In this document: in pieces, positions 128-4,691 of the stretch | How positions within the stretch are numbered: the stretch's first letter is position 1 | Layout: each line of letters opens with the position of its first letter | Virus record (IMG/VR): IMGVR_UViG_3300032323_001205 | Location: 1-26,918 of that record | Length of the DNA stretch: 26,918 nucleotides | DNA from: a virus | Lineage: Duplodnaviria; Heunggongvirae; Uroviricota; Caudoviricetes | Reading direction: 5' to 3' (one strand) | Program-made: the position numbers and the translations under genes | Notes under the pieces: generated by a model | Told to the model about the DNA's origin: nothing | Seen by the model: only the letters and a program-made list of their open reading frames with translations | The model's database searches: none

Positions 128-203
128 GTAGGTGTGACCCGAATGGTGAGGGCCCGGATTGCAAATCCGTAATATGCAGGTTCGAGTCCTGTCACCTACT
201 CCA
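128..203 (+). tRNA. trnC: tRNA-Cys(GCA)
   Basis: Acceptor gtaggtg/cacctac, U73, encoded CCA; anticodon loop ttGCAaa; T-loop ttcgagt. Confidence 0.96.
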
Positions 204-211
204 GAATACAT

Positions 212-285
212 GCGGGGTTCGTATAGTGGTAATACCTCAGCCTTCCAAGCTGATGCGGAGAGTTCGATTCTCTTACCCCGCTCCA
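212..285 (+). tRNA. trnG: tRNA-Gly(TCC)
   Basis: Acceptor gcggggt/accccgc, U73, CCA; tcagc-ctTCCaa-gctga anticodon arm. Confidence 0.97.
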
Positions 286-293
286 AGTTATCC

Positions 294-337
294 AAAAGCA
301 GTAGACAGATAAATAGTTTTCTGTTATACTGTCTTTT
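294..337 (+). other. Intergenic hairpin with ATAAATA (late-promoter-like motif) in the loop
   Basis: aaaagcagtagacaga / tctgttatactgtctttt imperfect inverted repeat around taaatagttt. Confidence 0.5.
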
Positions 338-367
338 GTTCTTTAAAAATTTAAATGACAGTTTTTT

Positions 368-444
368 GCCCCGGTGACGGAATTGGTATACGTGTTGGTC
401 TTAGAAGCCAAATTTTAGGAGTTCGAGTCTCCTCTGGGGCACCA
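368..444 (+). tRNA. trnL: tRNA-Leu(TAG) with short (5-nt) variable loop
   Basis: Acceptor gccccgg/ctggggc, A73, CCA; ttggt-ctTAGaa-gccaa; T-stem aggag/ctcct; variable region only atttt (412-416). Confidence 0.92.
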
Positions 445-517
445 TATAAAAACATATTTGATTAAACTCGGGTTCATCCGTGATAGCATTGCTACTATAT
501 CAAGTGTGTTTTTATAT
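444..517 (+). other. Long spacer stem-loop between tRNA-Leu and tRNA-Ala
   Basis: atataaaaacatatttgat (444-462) pairs with atcaagtgtgtttttatat (499-517), the two deviations being G-U compatible; internal mini-hairpins cggg-ttca-tccg and tagc-att-gcta. Confidence 0.7.
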
Positions 518-593
518 GGGGGCGTAGCTCAGTTGGGAGAGCGGTTGCTTTGCAAGCAATAGGTCGCAGGTTCGATCCCTGTCTCCTCCACCA
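518..593 (+). tRNA. trnA: tRNA-Ala(TGC)
   Basis: G3-U70 identity pair, A73, CCA; gttgc-ttTGCaa-gcaat. Confidence 0.97.
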
Positions 594-598
594 ATAAA

Positions 599-800
599 CC
601 CGGCTTACACTTTCACGTTATGAAAGTGCGTCCCTGTAACGATAGACCAGGGGGTACACTAGGACCTGACCTTACAGTCCCTGTTGGGGGATACTGAAAA
701 CTCCTGGGGTGAGGAACGCTAACCTTTACCAGAAGAAGAAATACGTGGACAGTGTAACAACTCAGAGATTGGGCTTATGTGGTGTAAGTAGCAGTCTCAT
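599..800 (+). ncRNA. Candidate ~200-nt structured ncRNA of unknown family
   Basis: cactttca/tgaaagtg (608-628), ccctg/caggg (632-652), cagt..actg (675-696), cttacac 604-610/gtgtaag 782-788, gagatt 765-770/agtctc 793-798; GC-richer than flanking spacers, no ORF. Confidence 0.55.
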
Positions 801-869
801 TTTATAAGTGTGTTTCGCACCCAGCTGATAAGACTGGCTCTGTAAGTGAAAAAGAAATACATTTATAAA
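801..869 (+). other. Long spacer stem-loop upstream of tRNA-Met
   Basis: tttataagtgtgtttc (801-816) pairs with gaaatacatttataaa (854-869), 16 bp with two G-U; inner hairpin ccag-ctgataaga-ctgg. Confidence 0.7.
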
Positions 870-872
870 TTA

Positions 873-947
873 CGCGGGTAGGGTTGGTCACCACTCCAGT
901 CTCATAAGCTCGGAGCATCGGCAGTTCGAATCTGTCACCCGCATCCA
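873..947 (+). tRNA. Atypical tRNA-Met(CAT), initiator-like acceptor (C1:A72 mismatch)
   Basis: cgcgggt/acccgca + t + CCA; loop ctCATaa; T-arm ggcag-ttcgaat-ctgtc; D-arm shortened and anticodon stem bulged. Confidence 0.75.
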
Positions 948-961
948 ATTAGGAGAATTAT

Positions 962-1111
962 ATGCCAATGTATGAAACAACAGTTCGCACACCAGAAGGC
1001 GACAAGAAAGATAAAGTCTATGCTCCCAATGTACAAGAAGCCAAAAAGCTTTTTGAACAAAGACATGGTCCACGAAATGTTCCATACATACCACATATGA
1101 TACCAAGTTAA
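962..1111 (+). CDS. Small hypothetical protein, 49 aa (MPMYETTVRTPEGDKK...)
   Basis: Not in supplied track; strong SD aggagaatt before ATG 962, TAA 1109-1111, fills gap between tRNAs. Confidence 0.8.
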   Translation: MPMYETTVRTPEGDKKDKVYAPNVQEAKKLFEQRHGPRNVPYIPHMIPS

Positions 1112-1113
1112 AT

Positions 1114-1149
1114 CCGAGTGTAGCGCAGCCTGGTTAGCGCATCTGCTTT
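1114..1149 (+). pseudogene. 5' half remnant of a tRNA-Pro gene (acceptor 5' strand, D-arm, 5' anticodon stem)
   Basis: ccgagtg-tagcgcagcctggttagcgca-tctgc-ttt is a typical tRNA-Pro 5' half; the sequence stops being tRNA-like inside the anticodon loop. Confidence 0.8.
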
Positions 1150-1167
1150 ACAGGCATAAATACATAC

Positions 1168-1788
1168 ATGCTAATATGTAAACACTGCAATAAAGAATGC
1201 AAGAATCTTAATTCTCTACGCAACCACGAAAGGTTGTGCAAATCTAACCCCTATCGACAAACTACATTCATTGAGGCTTATAATGAAAATCGTGTAGGGT
1301 CTTGGAATTCAGGCCTTACTAAGGAAAACAATTCTTCATTGAAGTCTGCCGCCGACAAGTTAAAAAAGAAATATGATTCGGGTGAACTTACTGCGCAGTC
1401 ACCTGCTTGTACTAAAGAATACTGGACAGAAGAAAAAAGAAAAGAAAAATCAGAGTGGCGCAAGCAATTGCACCGAGACTTCCCAGAAATGCATCCAAAT
1501 CGCAAATTGGCAGGGAATAGAAAGAAAATGTCTTACCCTGAACAAGTTGCATTTGACTTCTTAACAAGACATAATATAGTCTTTGAACACAATAAAAGGA
1601 TTGACAAGTATTACCCAGATTTTGTAATAGGAAATACTGTCATAGAAATTGACGGTGTTCAATGGCACGACAAAGAAAAAGATAGGATCCGTGATGAAGT
1701 AATAAGTAGTTATGGATATCAAGTTGTTCGTATTCTCTCAACTGAGAACATAGAAGAACGATTAACAATTTTACTCGGATTCGCCTAG
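1168..1788 (+). CDS. Putative free-standing homing endonuclease: N-terminal zinc finger + C-terminal DUF559/Vsr-like (EDxHD-type) nuclease domain
   Basis: CKHC..HERLC zinc-finger motif; C-terminal SYPEQ..YPDF..IEIDGVQWHD..RD..GYQVVRI pattern of Vsr-like nucleases; ATAAATA 5 nt before ATG. Confidence 0.85.
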   Translation: MLICKHCNKECKNLNSLRNHERLCKSNPYRQTTFIEAYNENRVGSWNSGLTKENNSSLKSAADKLKKKYDSGELTAQSPACTKEYWTEEKRKEKSEWRKQLHRDFPEMHPNRKLAGNRKKMSYPEQVAFDFLTRHNIVFEHNKRIDKYYPDFVIGNTVIEIDGVQWHDKEKDRIRDEVISSYGYQVVRILSTENIEERLTILLGFA

Positions 1789-1853
1789 TCTGGTCGATGG
1801 CACCTGCTTTGGGAGCAGGAATAACGTGAGTTCAAATCCCACATCCGAGACCA
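1774..1853 (+). tRNA. trnP: tRNA-Pro(TGG), first 15 nt overlap the endonuclease ORF
   Basis: Acceptor ctcggat/atccgag, A73, CCA; cctgc-ttTGGga-gcagg. Confidence 0.93.
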
Positions 1854-1877
1854 ATTTAAATTTTAAAAGGAGTTAGT

Positions 1878-2039
1878 ATGACATGTAGAGGTTATGATCC
1901 TAAAGCGGTCAAAGTTGATAAAACAGTAAAACGCATGGCGTCAACGATTTGTGATAATCACGTTCGTGGTGCATACATTCGTAGCTTTGTCGAGATTGCA
2001 AAATCACAATCACGAGGTGCTCGAAAGGACTCAAAGTGA
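1878..2039 (+). CDS. Small basic hypothetical protein, 53 aa (MTCRGYDPKAVKVDK...)
   Basis: Not in track; SD aaggag, ATG 1878, TGA 2037-2039 overlapping next GTG start. Confidence 0.75.
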   Translation: MTCRGYDPKAVKVDKTVKRMASTICDNHVRGAYIRSFVEIAKSQSRGARKDSK

Positions 2040-2221
2040 GTAAAGGTAGTAGACCACGTCCCTACAGTGTTGATTTAAACACTTTTAATAATAATTGGGA
2101 TAGCATCTTTAAAAAAAATCAAGTAGATGAAGACAAACAACCTTTATCGGGAACTAGTCGTATTGAATCATCCACTATTGATATTGATACAGAAGTTAAA
2201 GATAGTAACCATGGTGGATAA
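2036..2221 (+). CDS. Small phage hypothetical protein (SKGSRPRP..NWDSIF)
   Basis: GTGA start/stop coupling with upstream ORF. Confidence 0.75.
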   Translation: MSKGSRPRPYSVDLNTFNNNWDSIFKKNQVDEDKQPLSGTSRIESSTIDIDTEVKDSNHGG

Positions 2222-2573
2222 TACATATTGGGGATATCATTTGATGTTAGATTGTAGTGGATGTAAAAACATTGACAATCGGCAAACTATTTATAACTTT
2301 GTAAAGGCTTTGGTAAAAGAAATCGATATGGTAGCGCATGGTGAACCTATTATTGAATATCTATTATCCGGAGATCCTAAACAAGGTTATAGTTTGATGC
2401 AGTTAATTACTACTAGCAATATATGTGGACATTTTATGGAATTAGATAGTACTGCATATTTTGATATCTTTAGTTGTAAAGAATTTGATATCAACAAAGC
2501 ACAGAATATTGTGAGAAAATATTTCAGTCCAAAAAAAGTTAGAGTTAATTTCTTAACAAGACATGCAGATTGA
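2211..2573 (+). CDS. speD: S-adenosylmethionine decarboxylase proenzyme family (pyruvoyl-dependent)
   Basis: WGYHLMLDCSGC N-terminus, GYSLMQLITTSNICGHF self-cleavage region, YFDIFSCKEFD; ATG 2211 chosen over the track's longer start. Confidence 0.85.
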   Translation: MVDNTYWGYHLMLDCSGCKNIDNRQTIYNFVKALVKEIDMVAHGEPIIEYLLSGDPKQGYSLMQLITTSNICGHFMELDSTAYFDIFSCKEFDINKAQNIVRKYFSPKKVRVNFLTRHAD

Positions 2574-2588
2574 ATTAAATAAAATTAC

Positions 2589-2663
2589 GCATCGTTAACT
2601 CAGCGGTAGAGTGTCTCCTTTACACGGAGAGGGTCGGCGGTTCGATCCCGTCACGATGTACCA
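2589..2663 (+). tRNA. trnV: tRNA-Val(TAC)
   Basis: Acceptor gcatcgt/acgatgt, A73, CCA; tctcc-ttTACac-ggaga. Confidence 0.97.
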
Positions 2664-2680
2664 AATACATAGGAGTAATT

Positions 2681-2814
2681 ATGAGCAAGAGTAAAGATGT
2701 TATTGATCGTGCTTATGGAAACATTTCCAAAGAAGTTACTCCTATTATAGAATTTAATTTATTTCCAACATGGCGTGGTATTAAATACTACTACATCATG
2801 TTGAAACGAAAAAT

Positions 2815-2824
<10 letters not shown>
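2681..2824 (+). CDS. Small hypothetical protein, 47 aa (MSKSKDVIDRAYGN...), stop lies inside tRNA-Gly
   Basis: Not in track; SD aggag, ATG 2681, TGA 2822-2824. Confidence 0.7.
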
Positions 2825-2889
<65 letters not shown>

Positions 2890-2911
2890 AGTTGATAAGG
2901 GTGAAGTACAA

Positions 2912-4063
2912 ATGTTTTTTTATATAGGCGAATCTAGTCCTATCAAAGCTTTAACTCATGTACACACTAGCCTATACATAGATGATGCATGGTTTCATTC
3001 AGAAGTGTTCGGAGTACCAGTTTGGTACAAAGGATATAGTACTGACTGCGTACTTGCTGATGCACTCCAAGATATATTAAATGGTTATCAGCCAGCCGGC
3101 AAGTGGTGTGTCATCTCATATGACAATACTTACAAGATACATCACTACATTATTCGTCCTTTTCCTATTTTTCAACGCGGGGAAGAGTATACAAATATTA
3201 ATTTAGATGGGTTTATTCGAACTCCTTATGAGTTACCGCAAGAACCTATATATACTTCTCCTATATCTATTGACGATGCGGCAGAAAGAATAGGCGATGT
3301 ATTGCATAAAAACACAATCAACTTTTACAAGTACAATCAGATTGGCAGAATGAATGTATTATTTTCTGGTGGACTAGATACATTAACTAGTTGGGCGATA
3401 TTAGACAGTATTAGACATGATTATGATCTTAATGTTTATTTGCCTAAATTGGGTGATACTGGTGTTAAGCATACTGGACGAATACGAGAAGTAGAATCTG
3501 ATTTGATCGACAACCTTACTAATAACTATTGGGGTTACACTATAACTAGTACGTACAAAAACCCATCCTGGTATATTACTGGTTTTTACGGTGAAAGATT
3601 TACTTTGCGAGAAGTAACGCAATCTTTATCCATAGCCAAGTATTTAAAAATATTGCAGGAAGATATGTTGAAAGAAACTGACTACATGTATTGGTTTATG
3701 AAAAGACCGTCTAATCATCCTAGTCAAGTAGGCGTCAGCGACTTTGATAACGAAGCCGAATTAAGAAAGTATTTTTTCAATACATGTTACCATGACCATC
3801 AGATGTGGCACCTAAATAACAATTTTCATTTTAGTCCTTTCTTTGATATAAGAATAGCCAAGATATCACACAACCTGTCATTACATGACATTATGAAAAA
3901 TAGTGCTAATGGTATAACTCAACGAAAAGTTATAGAACGATTTAGACCTGAGTTCATACAGTTACTTTCGGACTACAAGAATGCAAAAGACATATTCAAA
4001 AACTTTAAGAAAAATTTCTTAAGTATCAAACTGAATCCAGAAGTCAAAGTAAAGTTAAGATGA
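2912..4063 (+). CDS. Asparagine-synthase-like / PP-loop (adenine nucleotide alpha hydrolase) protein
   Basis: VLFSGGLDT PP-loop motif; C-terminal FSPFFDIRI resembles the asparagine synthase C-domain PFLD motif. Confidence 0.6.
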   Translation: MFFYIGESSPIKALTHVHTSLYIDDAWFHSEVFGVPVWYKGYSTDCVLADALQDILNGYQPAGKWCVISYDNTYKIHHYIIRPFPIFQRGEEYTNINLDGFIRTPYELPQEPIYTSPISIDDAAERIGDVLHKNTINFYKYNQIGRMNVLFSGGLDTLTSWAILDSIRHDYDLNVYLPKLGDTGVKHTGRIREVESDLIDNLTNNYWGYTITSTYKNPSWYITGFYGERFTLREVTQSLSIAKYLKILQEDMLKETDYMYWFMKRPSNHPSQVGVSDFDNEAELRKYFFNTCYHDHQMWHLNNNFHFSPFFDIRIAKISHNLSLHDIMKNSANGITQRKVIERFRPEFIQLLSDYKNAKDIFKNFKKNFLSIKLNPEVKVKLR

Positions 4064-4069
4064 GAGGGG

Positions 4070-4258
4070 ATGACAAGAAAAAATATTGATTTTGTTCCGT
4101 TGTATTATGAAACTATACTAGATTATGCTAGGGACAACTGGAACAATGTAAATCAATTTCGGTGGTCTGCTACTGAGTATAACTATCGTAAAATTTTTAC
4201 GAACTACGATCTAATATCATCTATAGTTCAAAATACCCAAAAACTGCTTACACTTTAA
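4070..4258 (+). CDS. Hypothetical protein
   Basis: ORF with purine-rich SD-like gagagggg; 3' end overlaps the predicted promoter of the next gene. Confidence 0.4.
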   Translation: MTRKNIDFVPLYYETILDYARDNWNNVNQFRWSATEYNYRKIFTNYDLISSIVQNTQKLLTL

Positions 4259-4298
4259 CAAAACTAAGCTATAATACAATTTTTAACTGAAAGAAAAT

Positions 4299-4520
4299 AT
4301 GACAGAAAGCCGTGCAAGATACACTAGTGAAGATGCAGTTAATATGGTGGGGAATCGTTTTGATTTAGTCCTCATTGCCTCACAACGAGTACGAGAACTG
4401 AAACGAGGGCATAGGTCTACACTTAATATTAAAGCAGGTCCTATTGTTACTGCACTACAAGAAGTTGAAGCAGGACTTGTAGGTCGTGAATATCTAAAAC
4501 GTATTAGAAAAAATCTATAA
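4299..4520 (+). CDS. rpoZ: RNA polymerase omega subunit homolog
   Basis: ARYTSEDAVNMVGNRFDLVLIASQRVREL..ALQEVEAG matches the proteobacterial omega signature AR.T.ED....GNRFDLVL.A..RARQL..AL.EI..G. Confidence 0.92.
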   Translation: MTESRARYTSEDAVNMVGNRFDLVLIASQRVRELKRGHRSTLNIKAGPIVTALQEVEAGLVGREYLKRIRKNL

Positions 4521-4524
4521 ATAT

Positions 4525-4598
4525 ATCTCTCTGATGTAATGGCAGCATGTCGGTCTCCAAAACCGTTCGTGGGGGTTCGAGTCCCTCGGGGGATGCCA
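4525..4598 (+). tRNA. trnW: tRNA-Trp(CCA)
   Basis: Acceptor atctctc/ggggga-t, G73, CCA; cggt-ctCCAaa-accg. Confidence 0.93.
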
Positions 4599-4603
4599 TA
4601 TAT

Positions 4604-4691
4604 GGAAACGTGGTCGAGTGGCCTATGGCGTCGGTCTTGAAAACCGAAGAACCGAAAGGTTCCGTGAGTTCGAATCTCACCGTTTCCGCCA
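4604..4691 (+). tRNA. trnS: tRNA-Ser(TGA)
   Basis: Acceptor ggaaacg/cgtttcc, G73, CCA; long variable arm gaacc-gaaa-ggttc. Confidence 0.97.

What the first reader, a model, noticed from the sequence alone, without database searches (positions are those of the whole stretch)
1114..1853. Endonuclease sitting at the anticodon of a broken tRNA-Pro and carrying its own replacement tRNA-Pro
Seen: a tRNA-Pro 5' half (1114-1149) stops inside the anticodon loop. It is followed by ATAAATA, a zinc-finger + Vsr/DUF559-like nuclease ORF, and a complete but different tRNA-Pro(TGG) whose first 15 nt encode the nuclease C-terminus (LGFA-stop). The motif gcaYctgcttt occurs at both 1139-1149 and 1800-1810. The downstream 3' half pairs only with the element-borne 5' half. 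Established: free-standing homing endonucleases occur in phage tRNA clusters (T4 SegB), and EDxHD/Vsr-like homing nucleases exist (I-Bth0305I). Inference: this is a selfish element that cuts the standard tRNA-Pro allele and delivers a resistant allele physically fused to its own coding sequence, so the nuclease cannot easily be lost without the tRNA.
Basis: partly seen in the sequence, partly recalled or inferred. Interest (0 to 1): 0.7.

Follow-up and report, generated by a model that had tools for sequence, protein, structure and literature searches.

The report
Nuclease cassette replacing phage proline tRNA
A selfish DNA-cutting-enzyme gene sits at the anticodon of a phage proline tRNA gene and brings a complete foreign proline tRNA as a spare; relatives still have the unbroken gene, and dozens of related enzymes in other phages show the same layout, which points to a way of invading a tRNA gene without an intron.

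Summary
Observation confirmed. A tRNA-Pro 5' half (1114-1149) stops at anticodon base 34. It is followed by CATAAATA, a 206-aa zinc-finger/Vsr-like nuclease (best structural match I-Bth0305I) and a full tRNA-Pro(TGG) that supplies its stop codon. A close relative (L088) and a 98%-identical strain in run X2 have the intact allele. The layout is family-wide: of 64 non-redundant homologs, 37 end at a tRNA-Pro(TGG) and 35 overlap it; 29 of 40 close ones keep a remnant. Cargo tRNAs avoid the common D-arm (4/37 vs 40/71 background), and dN/dS is 0.05-0.2. Best reading (0.72): a free-standing EDxHD-type homing endonuclease that cuts the common allele and carries a resistant spare. Cleavage is untested. 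Corrections: the cargo is a whole foreign allele, not a 5' half, and it is exchangeable and also occurs without the nuclease, so 'cannot be lost' is unsupported. Additions: promoter-to-ATG spacing is bimodal (leaderless vs Shine-Dalgarno, some with remnant-built hairpins), and the remnant may act as an operator. I found no paper describing this. The scan reported the same design before on other DNA, with other nucleases and tRNAs.

The parts
1114..1149 (+). Remnant 5' half (positions 1-34) of the resident tRNA-Pro(TGG); left end of the insertion; possible homology arm and operator
   Evidence: 35/36 identical to the intact allele at the empty site in L088/L141; 25/25 IMG/VR matches continue as intact tRNA-Pro
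1150..1154 (+). Junction AYAGG, fixed in the closest nuclease clade
   Evidence: Same junction in L161, L163, L166, L168, L172, L003
1155..1162 (+). T4-type late-promoter-like octamer CATAAATA. The 5-nt spacer puts the ATG at +1, predicting a leaderless mRNA (inferred)
   Evidence: TAAATA 4-5 nt before the ATG with no SD in 17 homologs; T4 consensus occupies -13 to -6 (PMC1524935)
1168..1788 (+). 206-aa endonuclease gene: N-terminal CCHC zinc-finger-like module, helical middle, C-terminal Vsr/EDxHD catalytic domain
   Evidence: dN/dS 0.05-0.20
1177..1239 (+). Zinc-finger-like module C4, C7, H20, C24
   Evidence: C4, C7 and H20 invariant, C24 in 59 of 60 homologs; weak Pfam zf-C2H2 hits
1519..1746 (+). 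DUF559/Vsr-like catalytic domain; D151, H167 and D172 align with I-Bth0305I D196, H213 and D222
   Evidence: PDB 3R3P is the top hit by profile (E=3.7e-7) and by fold (E=2.8e-5); residues invariant in 60/60; roles from PMC3239194
1774..1853 (+). Cargo tRNA-Pro(TGG), a complete foreign allele with encoded CCA, C1:G72 and A73
   Evidence: 75/80 identical to a free-standing allele in L295, 56/80 to the native allele of L088
1774..1788 (+). Overlap: tRNA positions 1-15 encode LGFA-stop, with T13-A14-G15 as the stop
   Evidence: 35 of 37 family loci with downstream Pro overlap it, 32 by 10, 11 or 15 nt

Best explanation
A free-standing homing endonuclease cassette of the Vsr-like/EDxHD type that targets the tRNA-Pro(TGG) gene of large freshwater phages. 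SHOWN: the cassette (promoter-like octamer, nuclease, whole foreign tRNA-Pro) lies between base 34 of the resident gene and that gene's 3' end. The old 5' half stays behind; the old 3' half is gone here, but its last 11 nt survive in L002. Relatives have the unbroken allele. INFERRED: late in infection the nuclease is made from a leaderless transcript. In a mixed infection it cuts the common allele (D-arm 3' strand GNGC, anticodon arm), most likely near the anticodon loop. The break is repaired from the carrier, using the remnant plus upstream flank on one side and the T arm, CCA end and downstream flank on the other. The carrier is immune because its remnant lacks everything beyond base 34 and its cargo differs in the D arm. 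The cargo keeps tRNA-Pro supply intact, so no intron is needed. SPECULATIVE: the remnant next to the promoter serves as an autorepression operator, as for I-TevI; RNase P cleavage at tRNA +1 removes the stop codon and damps nuclease output.
For: Empty site with the same flanks in L088/L141. Empty allele in a 98%-identical strain in run X2, which also holds a nuclease contig. None of 47 loci found with the downstream gene has the nuclease nearby. Family: 37 of 43 tRNAs at the nuclease 3' end are Pro(TGG). 20 clear remnants all stop matching at positions 32-35. D-stem 3' strand GNGC: cargo 4/37, unbiased viral sample 40/71 (p=3e-6), remnants 18/27; the bias holds without the class whose stop needs T13 (4/20, p=0.005). 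21 different cargo D-stems point to many swaps. Cargo stems are intact, with G72/A73 in 37/37. Catalytic residues are invariant and dN/dS is 0.05-0.20. Top structure is a proven homing endonuclease. Late-promoter motif and SD-hiding hairpins resemble T4 HEG control. An unrelated EndoVII-type ORF uses the same layout at tRNA-Pro in L177.
Against: No cleavage or homing was measured. Loci are related, so p-values overstate independence. No single base separates all cargos from all remnants; two cargos keep GCGC, and the L163 remnant resembles a cargo type of L172. 44% of background viral alleles also lack GNGC, so divergence alone is common. The remnant end may be inherited from one old insertion and need not mark the cut. 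TATAAATA is not enriched on this contig, and I did not look for gp55. An earlier scan note on a similar CPR cassette had its 'own enzyme cuts' reading priced low on later check (e1-2722251; AI note, not tested here).
Confidence: 0.72

Rival explanations
1. SegB-like homing: the nuclease cuts a generic tRNA motif or a neighbouring gene. The cargo tRNA-Pro only steers the cassette to the tRNA-Pro locus by homology, and the remnant is a recombination scar.
For: SegB cuts many tRNA genes at the T-loop motif (PMC2330249). Any cassette carrying tRNA-Pro would tend to recombine there. No invariant discriminating base was found.
Against: Does not explain why cargos avoid the GNGC D-arm, why remnants end at 32-35, or why the family stays beside tRNA-Pro in both the downstream and the mirror layout.
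Confidence: 0.13
2. A phage weapon, not a homing element: the nuclease attacks the host's or a competing phage's tRNA-Pro gene or RNA, and the cargo is the antidote.
For: Purifying selection; nuclease and tRNA stay paired; host tRNA-Pro genes could resemble the common allele (own knowledge, not tested).
Against: Patchy presence among near-identical strains. Insertion exactly in the phage's own gene. DNase-type fold closest to a homing enzyme. Cargo is decayed in L007, L026 and L039 while the ORF is open. Cutting a competitor's gene would itself cause homing.
Confidence: 0.08
3. An inactive relic that was inserted once and is now inherited passively.
For: Some family members have decayed remnants or cargo.
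Against: dN/dS far below 1, invariant active site, and remnant plus junction 42-43/43 identical in homologs whose synonymous sites are about one substitution per site apart.
Confidence: 0.05
4. A self-splicing intron in tRNA-Pro, as with I-Ssp6803I, joining 1149 to 1811.
For: The break at 34/35 is a classic tRNA group I intron position (own knowledge).
Against: No intron family found by Rfam at E<=1. The insert is filled by the ORF and would end in T, not G. The spliced product would pair only 2/7 in the acceptor stem. A complete tRNA is already present.
Confidence: 0.01

Closest known systems
EDxHD homing endonucleases (I-Bth0305I, phage Hef; PMC3239194, PMC2677866; PDB 3R3P)
   Same: C-terminal Vsr-like catalytic domain with the equivalent D, H and D residues; N-terminal DNA-binding region; phage-borne; free-standing members are known.
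   Different: N-terminus is a CCHC finger plus helices, not two NUMOD/HTH repeats. Known hosts are introns, split inteins or protein genes; no tRNA target or tRNA cargo appears in the passages read.
T4 SegB (GIY-YIG; PMC2330249, PMC2988022)
   Same: Free-standing homing endonuclease in a phage tRNA cluster that cuts tRNA genes; late promoter and RBS-hiding hairpin.
   Different: SegB lies between tRNA genes, recognises the generic T-loop motif and cuts its own genome's tRNA genes in vitro. It leaves no half gene and carries no cognate replacement. Different fold.
Fungal mitochondrial endonuclease elements with a foreign gene end (Allomyces macrogynus atp6; Glomus atp6, atp9, cox2, nad3; PMC3630166)
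   Same: The same logic: insert into a gene, displace the native part and bring a divergent foreign copy. Endonuclease-driven mobility is reported for these elements.
   Different: Protein-coding targets, LAGLIDADG/GIY-YIG enzymes, 3' ends replaced. Here a whole tRNA is delivered, the 5' half is displaced, and the cargo supplies the nuclease's stop codon.
I-Ssp6803I in the cyanobacterial tRNA group I intron (mentioned in PMC2677866)
   Same: PD-(D/E)xK-type enzyme homing into a tRNA gene.
   Different: Needs a self-splicing intron; none is present here.
Integrase elements that restore a tRNA gene at attL/attR (own knowledge)
   Same: A tRNA gene is split and function is restored by element DNA.
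   Different: No recombinase in the 700-bp cassette; whole tRNA carried; usually the 3' part is the one duplicated in att sites.

Membership tests
EDxHD homing endonuclease | C-terminal Vsr-like catalytic fold | tested here: met
   3R3P top by profile E=3.7e-7 and by Foldseek E=2.8e-5, TM by target 0.70; Vsr 1CW0 next; model pLDDT 87.5
EDxHD homing endonuclease | Conserved E, D, H, D active-site residues | tested here: met
   D151/H167/D172 align with D196/H213/D222; E125, E160 and D162 also invariant, 60/60
EDxHD homing endonuclease | N-terminal NUMOD2/HTH DNA-binding repeats as in I-Bth0305I | tested here: not met
   No NUMOD hit in Pfam at E<=1; a C2H2-like finger instead. A feature of the prototype, so this is a variant architecture
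EDxHD homing endonuclease | Homodimer cutting a pseudo-palindromic site | not tested
   No complex job was run; the anticodon arm is an inverted repeat in DNA, which is only a lead
Free-standing homing endonuclease | Absent from the homologous locus of close relatives | tested here: met
   L088/L141 and run X2 record 13
Free-standing homing endonuclease | Not inside an intron or intein | tested here: met
   No intron family; the ORF fills the insert
Free-standing homing endonuclease | Cleaves the empty allele, spares the carrier, is over-inherited | not testable with these tools
   Only indirect: D-arm bias of the cargo
Free-standing homing endonuclease | Late, delayed expression as for T4 HEGs | tested here: inconclusive
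   TAAATA within 45 nt of the ATG in 37 of 51 homologs, hairpins in some; no RNA data; gp55 not sought
Allomyces/Glomus replacement-type element | Displaced native part matches relatives; inserted part is foreign | tested here: met
   Remnant 35/36 to L088; cargo 56/80 to L088 but 75/80 to L295. Works like it; not a member (other enzyme, target and genome)
Group I tRNA intron | Catalytic core, terminal G, exons ligate to a foldable tRNA | tested here: not met
Integrase-type tRNA island | Recombinase gene and att repeats | tested here: not met
   The only ORF in the insert is the nuclease

The most novel reading that the evidence does not exclude
A widespread, isotype-specific 'cut the tRNA gene, carry a spare' gene drive of phages in which the wreck of the target is reused to control the nuclease. 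The remnant acts as an autorepression operator beside the late promoter (kept even in inverted orientation in one clade) or as one arm of an RBS-hiding hairpin. tRNA processing removes the nuclease's stop codon, and nuclease and tRNA alleles chase each other, driving tRNA-Pro allele turnover.
Probability: 0.25. Interest if true: 0.8.

Novelty: new variant of a known kind. Interest (0 to 1): 0.6.

Why it matters
Homing endonucleases normally avoid harming a useful gene by hiding in an intron or intein, or by sitting beside it. Here one appears to destroy a tRNA gene and supply a resistant foreign copy, a natural counterpart of engineered homing drives with a recoded rescue. It would help explain half-tRNAs, odd alleles and fast turnover in phage tRNA arrays. 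This locus gives a clean test set: a 206-aa enzyme, a known empty allele, its cargo, and 35 distinct cargo cores from relatives for mapping specificity. The annotation consequence is that ORFs overlapping tRNAs in such arrays are real and should not be filtered out.

Tried and rejected
(1) Mosaic cargo (element 5' half plus native T arm): suggested by the T stem shared with L088, but rejected because free-standing alleles L295 and L291 have the same T stem and match the whole cargo. (2) Intron, integrase island and assembly artefact: rejected. (3) RBS hairpin in the window itself: not significant (z -0.7 and -1.35), and there is no SD. (4) tblastn of cultured phage records found no match. GTDB gave one hit, on a 4.9-kb MAG contig with the same layout, probably phage DNA. 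(5) No RNA holder listed, so expression is untested. (6) TATAAATA is not enriched on the contig against one shuffle. (7) Automatic remnant alignment misplaced about four of 27 (L043, L054, L056, L057), so 18/27 is conservative; that run's Wilcoxon p=0.04 is weak. (8) The tree is the quick version with a weak backbone; only starred clades were used. (9) Literature searches found no description of this layout; the library lacks most subscription papers. (11) Searches were input errors; one search crashed after its summary counts and was rerun.

Full report
Setting. The window is the start of a 90,918-base virus record. It has ten tRNA genes in 128-4691, an AdoMet decarboxylase and an RNA polymerase omega-like gene. 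Relatives are environmental phage contigs; no cultured phage record matches the nuclease.

Observation. The acceptor 3' strand pairs 7/7 with the element's 5' end and 2/7 with the remnant. One contig of run X1 spans both junctions with no differences, and X3 and X4 hold variant copies with 28 and 52 differences. So this is not a mis-assembly.

The empty site. A search with the downstream 53-aa gene gave 47 loci; none has the nuclease in the fetched DNA. The closest, L088 (same contig as L141), has the same flanks around an intact tRNA-Pro. Its first 36 nt equal the remnant at 35 positions, and the 36 nt from the discriminator base on differ from the window at one position. All 25 IMG/VR contigs with the remnant 36-mer continue as intact tRNA-Pro. 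In run X2 a contig 98% identical to 921-1149 runs on into the intact anticodon arm, while another contig of that sample carries the nuclease with one difference. Filled and empty alleles therefore coexist among near-identical phages. In X4 a 4,458-nt contig matches only 1118-1990, which suggests the cassette sits in another background there.

The protein. Pfam gives DUF559 at aa 118-193 and a weak C2H2 finger. A 60-sequence profile hits PDB 3R3P, the I-Bth0305I catalytic domain, at E=3.7e-7. The AlphaFold model (pLDDT 87.5) also finds 3R3P first, then Vsr. D151, H167 and D172 align with D196, H213 and D222, which PMC3239194 treats as active-site residues. These, E125, E160, D162, C4, C7 and H20 are invariant in 60/60. 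dN/dS to close homologs is 0.05-0.20 (one pair was saturated). There are 202 homologs of similar length and 127 50%-clusters at E<=1e-30.

The family shares the layout. From I built 64 loci non-redundant at 90% aa. 37 have tRNA-Pro(TGG) at the 3' end; 35 overlap the stop, 32 of them by 10, 11 or 15 nt (stop at T8-A9-G10 or T13-A14-G15/A15). 14 have tRNA-Pro upstream. Of 43 tRNAs at the 3' end, 37 are Pro(TGG). Among 40 loci at >=45% identity, 29 have a 5' remnant at p<=0.02 against shuffles. The six close loci without an ARAGORN Pro call show atypical or decayed Pro genes (five) or a cut contig (one). Twenty clear remnants all stop matching at positions 32-35. In L002 the last 11 nt of the old gene, complementary to the remnant's acceptor strand, follow the cargo, so both ends of the old gene bracket the cassette. 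A distant clade is mirrored: full tRNA-Pro upstream and a 3' half downstream (L063, L067, p=0.003).

The cargo. It is a whole foreign allele: 75/80 identical to a free-standing tRNA-Pro in L295, 72/80 to L293 and L291, and 56/80 to the native allele of L088. The same type occurs right behind another tRNA in run X1. An 89%-identical nuclease carries a different allele (63/80), so cargo is swapped. Cargos look functional: anticodon stems fully paired, G72 and A73 in 37/37. They avoid the common D-stem 3' strand GNGC: 4/37 against 40/71 in a viral sample chosen without regard to the D arm (p=3e-6), while remnants keep it (18/27). Seventeen cargos need T13 for the stop codon, which is a confounder; without them the figure is 4/20 (p=0.005). 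The loci are related, but 21 different D-stems imply many events. This is the main indirect evidence that the common allele is the target and that the D arm to anticodon arm is read.

Expression signals. TAAATA lies within 45 nt of the ATG in 37 of 51 homologs, in two classes: 4-5 nt (17 loci, none with an SD) and mostly 14-27 nt (20 loci, most with an SD). The T4 late consensus occupies -13 to -6 (PMC1524935), so a 5-nt spacer, as in the window, puts the ATG at +1: a leaderless late mRNA (inference). In the second class, L033, L041 and L060 fold strong hairpins (z -8.2, -5.4, -4.8) in which the remnant's D-arm sequence pairs with the ribosome-binding region and the promoter lies in the loop. 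This is the arrangement known for I-TevI, segB and mobE (PMC2988022). Remnant plus junction is 42-43/43 identical in L161 and L166 although dS is 0.8-1.1, so it is either renewed by recent homing or under selection. In L063, L064 and L067 (one clade) a D-arm-like motif abuts the promoter in inverted orientation (p 0.003-0.007), where it cannot be a homology arm. That fits an operator like that of I-TevI, but it is one event and untested. Caveat: the motif is not enriched on this contig and gp55 was not sought.

Mechanism. Shown: insertion at base 34, a whole foreign cargo, empty alleles, an intact conserved nuclease, family-wide pairing and D-arm bias. Inferred (0.72): late-made nuclease cuts the common tRNA-Pro gene of a co-infecting phage, and repair copies the cassette in; the carrier is immune because the site is split and the cargo differs. 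Rivals: SegB-like cutting elsewhere with homology-guided placement (0.13), a weapon against host or competitor (0.08), a relic (0.05), an intron (0.01). The overlap may matter otherwise, since RNase P cleavage at +1 would remove the stop codon (lead from e1-5429204; not testable here).

Comparison and novelty. The enzyme fits the EDxHD lineage in fold and active site but not in its N-terminal modules. In logic it works like the Allomyces/Glomus mitochondrial elements that bring a foreign gene end (PMC3630166). SegB shares the habitat, not the design. My searches found no paper on endonucleases that split a tRNA gene and carry a cognate replacement. The scan itself has reported this design in several other genomes, with GIY-YIG, HNH and Vsr-like enzymes at Lys, Val, Arg, Gln and Pro genes; these are unchecked AI notes. 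I saw one independent case myself: L177 has a Pro remnant, CATAAATA, an EndoVII-type ORF and a divergent tRNA-Pro overlapped by 10 nt. Verdict: real, a new variant of a known kind, with good comparative support and no functional test; interest 0.6.

Noticed in passing
L177 (IMGVR 3300046001_004161), minus strand, 353 nt upstream of tRNA-Pro to its start: tRNA-Pro 5' remnant, CATAAATA, a 105-aa endonuclease VII-type ORF (PF02945) and a divergent tRNA-Pro overlapped by 10 nt: an unrelated nuclease with the same design at the same target. A second, distant DUF559-like ORF (191 aa) ends near tRNA-Met upstream.
   Followed up: partly
L198, L226 (upstream of TGGC-type tRNA-Pro); L297: HNH-like ORFs (by eye) end inside or right before tRNA-Pro; no 5' remnant detected. 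Similar alleles without a nuclease sit in cyanophage-like contigs (L184, L188).
   Followed up: no
L013, L037, L010/L011, L289 vs L027, L102: One nuclease clade has remnants of a short-D-arm TCAC allele, a type that is the cargo in L027 and stands alone in L102; possible shift of specificity to a once-resistant allele.
   Followed up: partly
L010/L011 (130-kb contig): A full cargo-type tRNA-Pro lies upstream of a remnant and the nuclease, whose 3' end overlaps a tRNA-Thr call; a second distant homolog lies 2.4 kb upstream.
   Followed up: partly
L007, L026, L039: The cargo tRNA-Pro is decayed while the nuclease ORF is open. L092 and L096 have no tRNA-Pro at the usual place. tRNA-Pro may be dispensable in these phages.
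   Followed up: partly
L033, L048, L053: tRNA-Pro(TGG)-like genes with an atypical T loop beside the nuclease; two are missed by ARAGORN.
   Followed up: no
L015/L058: tRNA-Pro(TGG) lies on the opposite strand, tail to tail with the nuclease.
   Followed up: no
window 368-444: tRNA-Leu(TAG) of 77 nt without the long variable arm; several relatives have an 84-85-nt version, others the short one.
   Followed up: no
window 594-872: ORF-poor stretch between tRNA-Ala and tRNA-Met; 743-951 is 89% identical in L001 and has no Rfam match. Possible structured RNA.
   Followed up: no
window 6320-7735: 471-aa DUF2828/vWA (Ro60-like) protein; another scan note links such proteins to small RNAs.
   Followed up: no
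window 2681-2824: A short ORF's stop lies inside tRNA-Gly(GCC) (2815), a second ORF-tRNA overlap without a nuclease.
   Followed up: no
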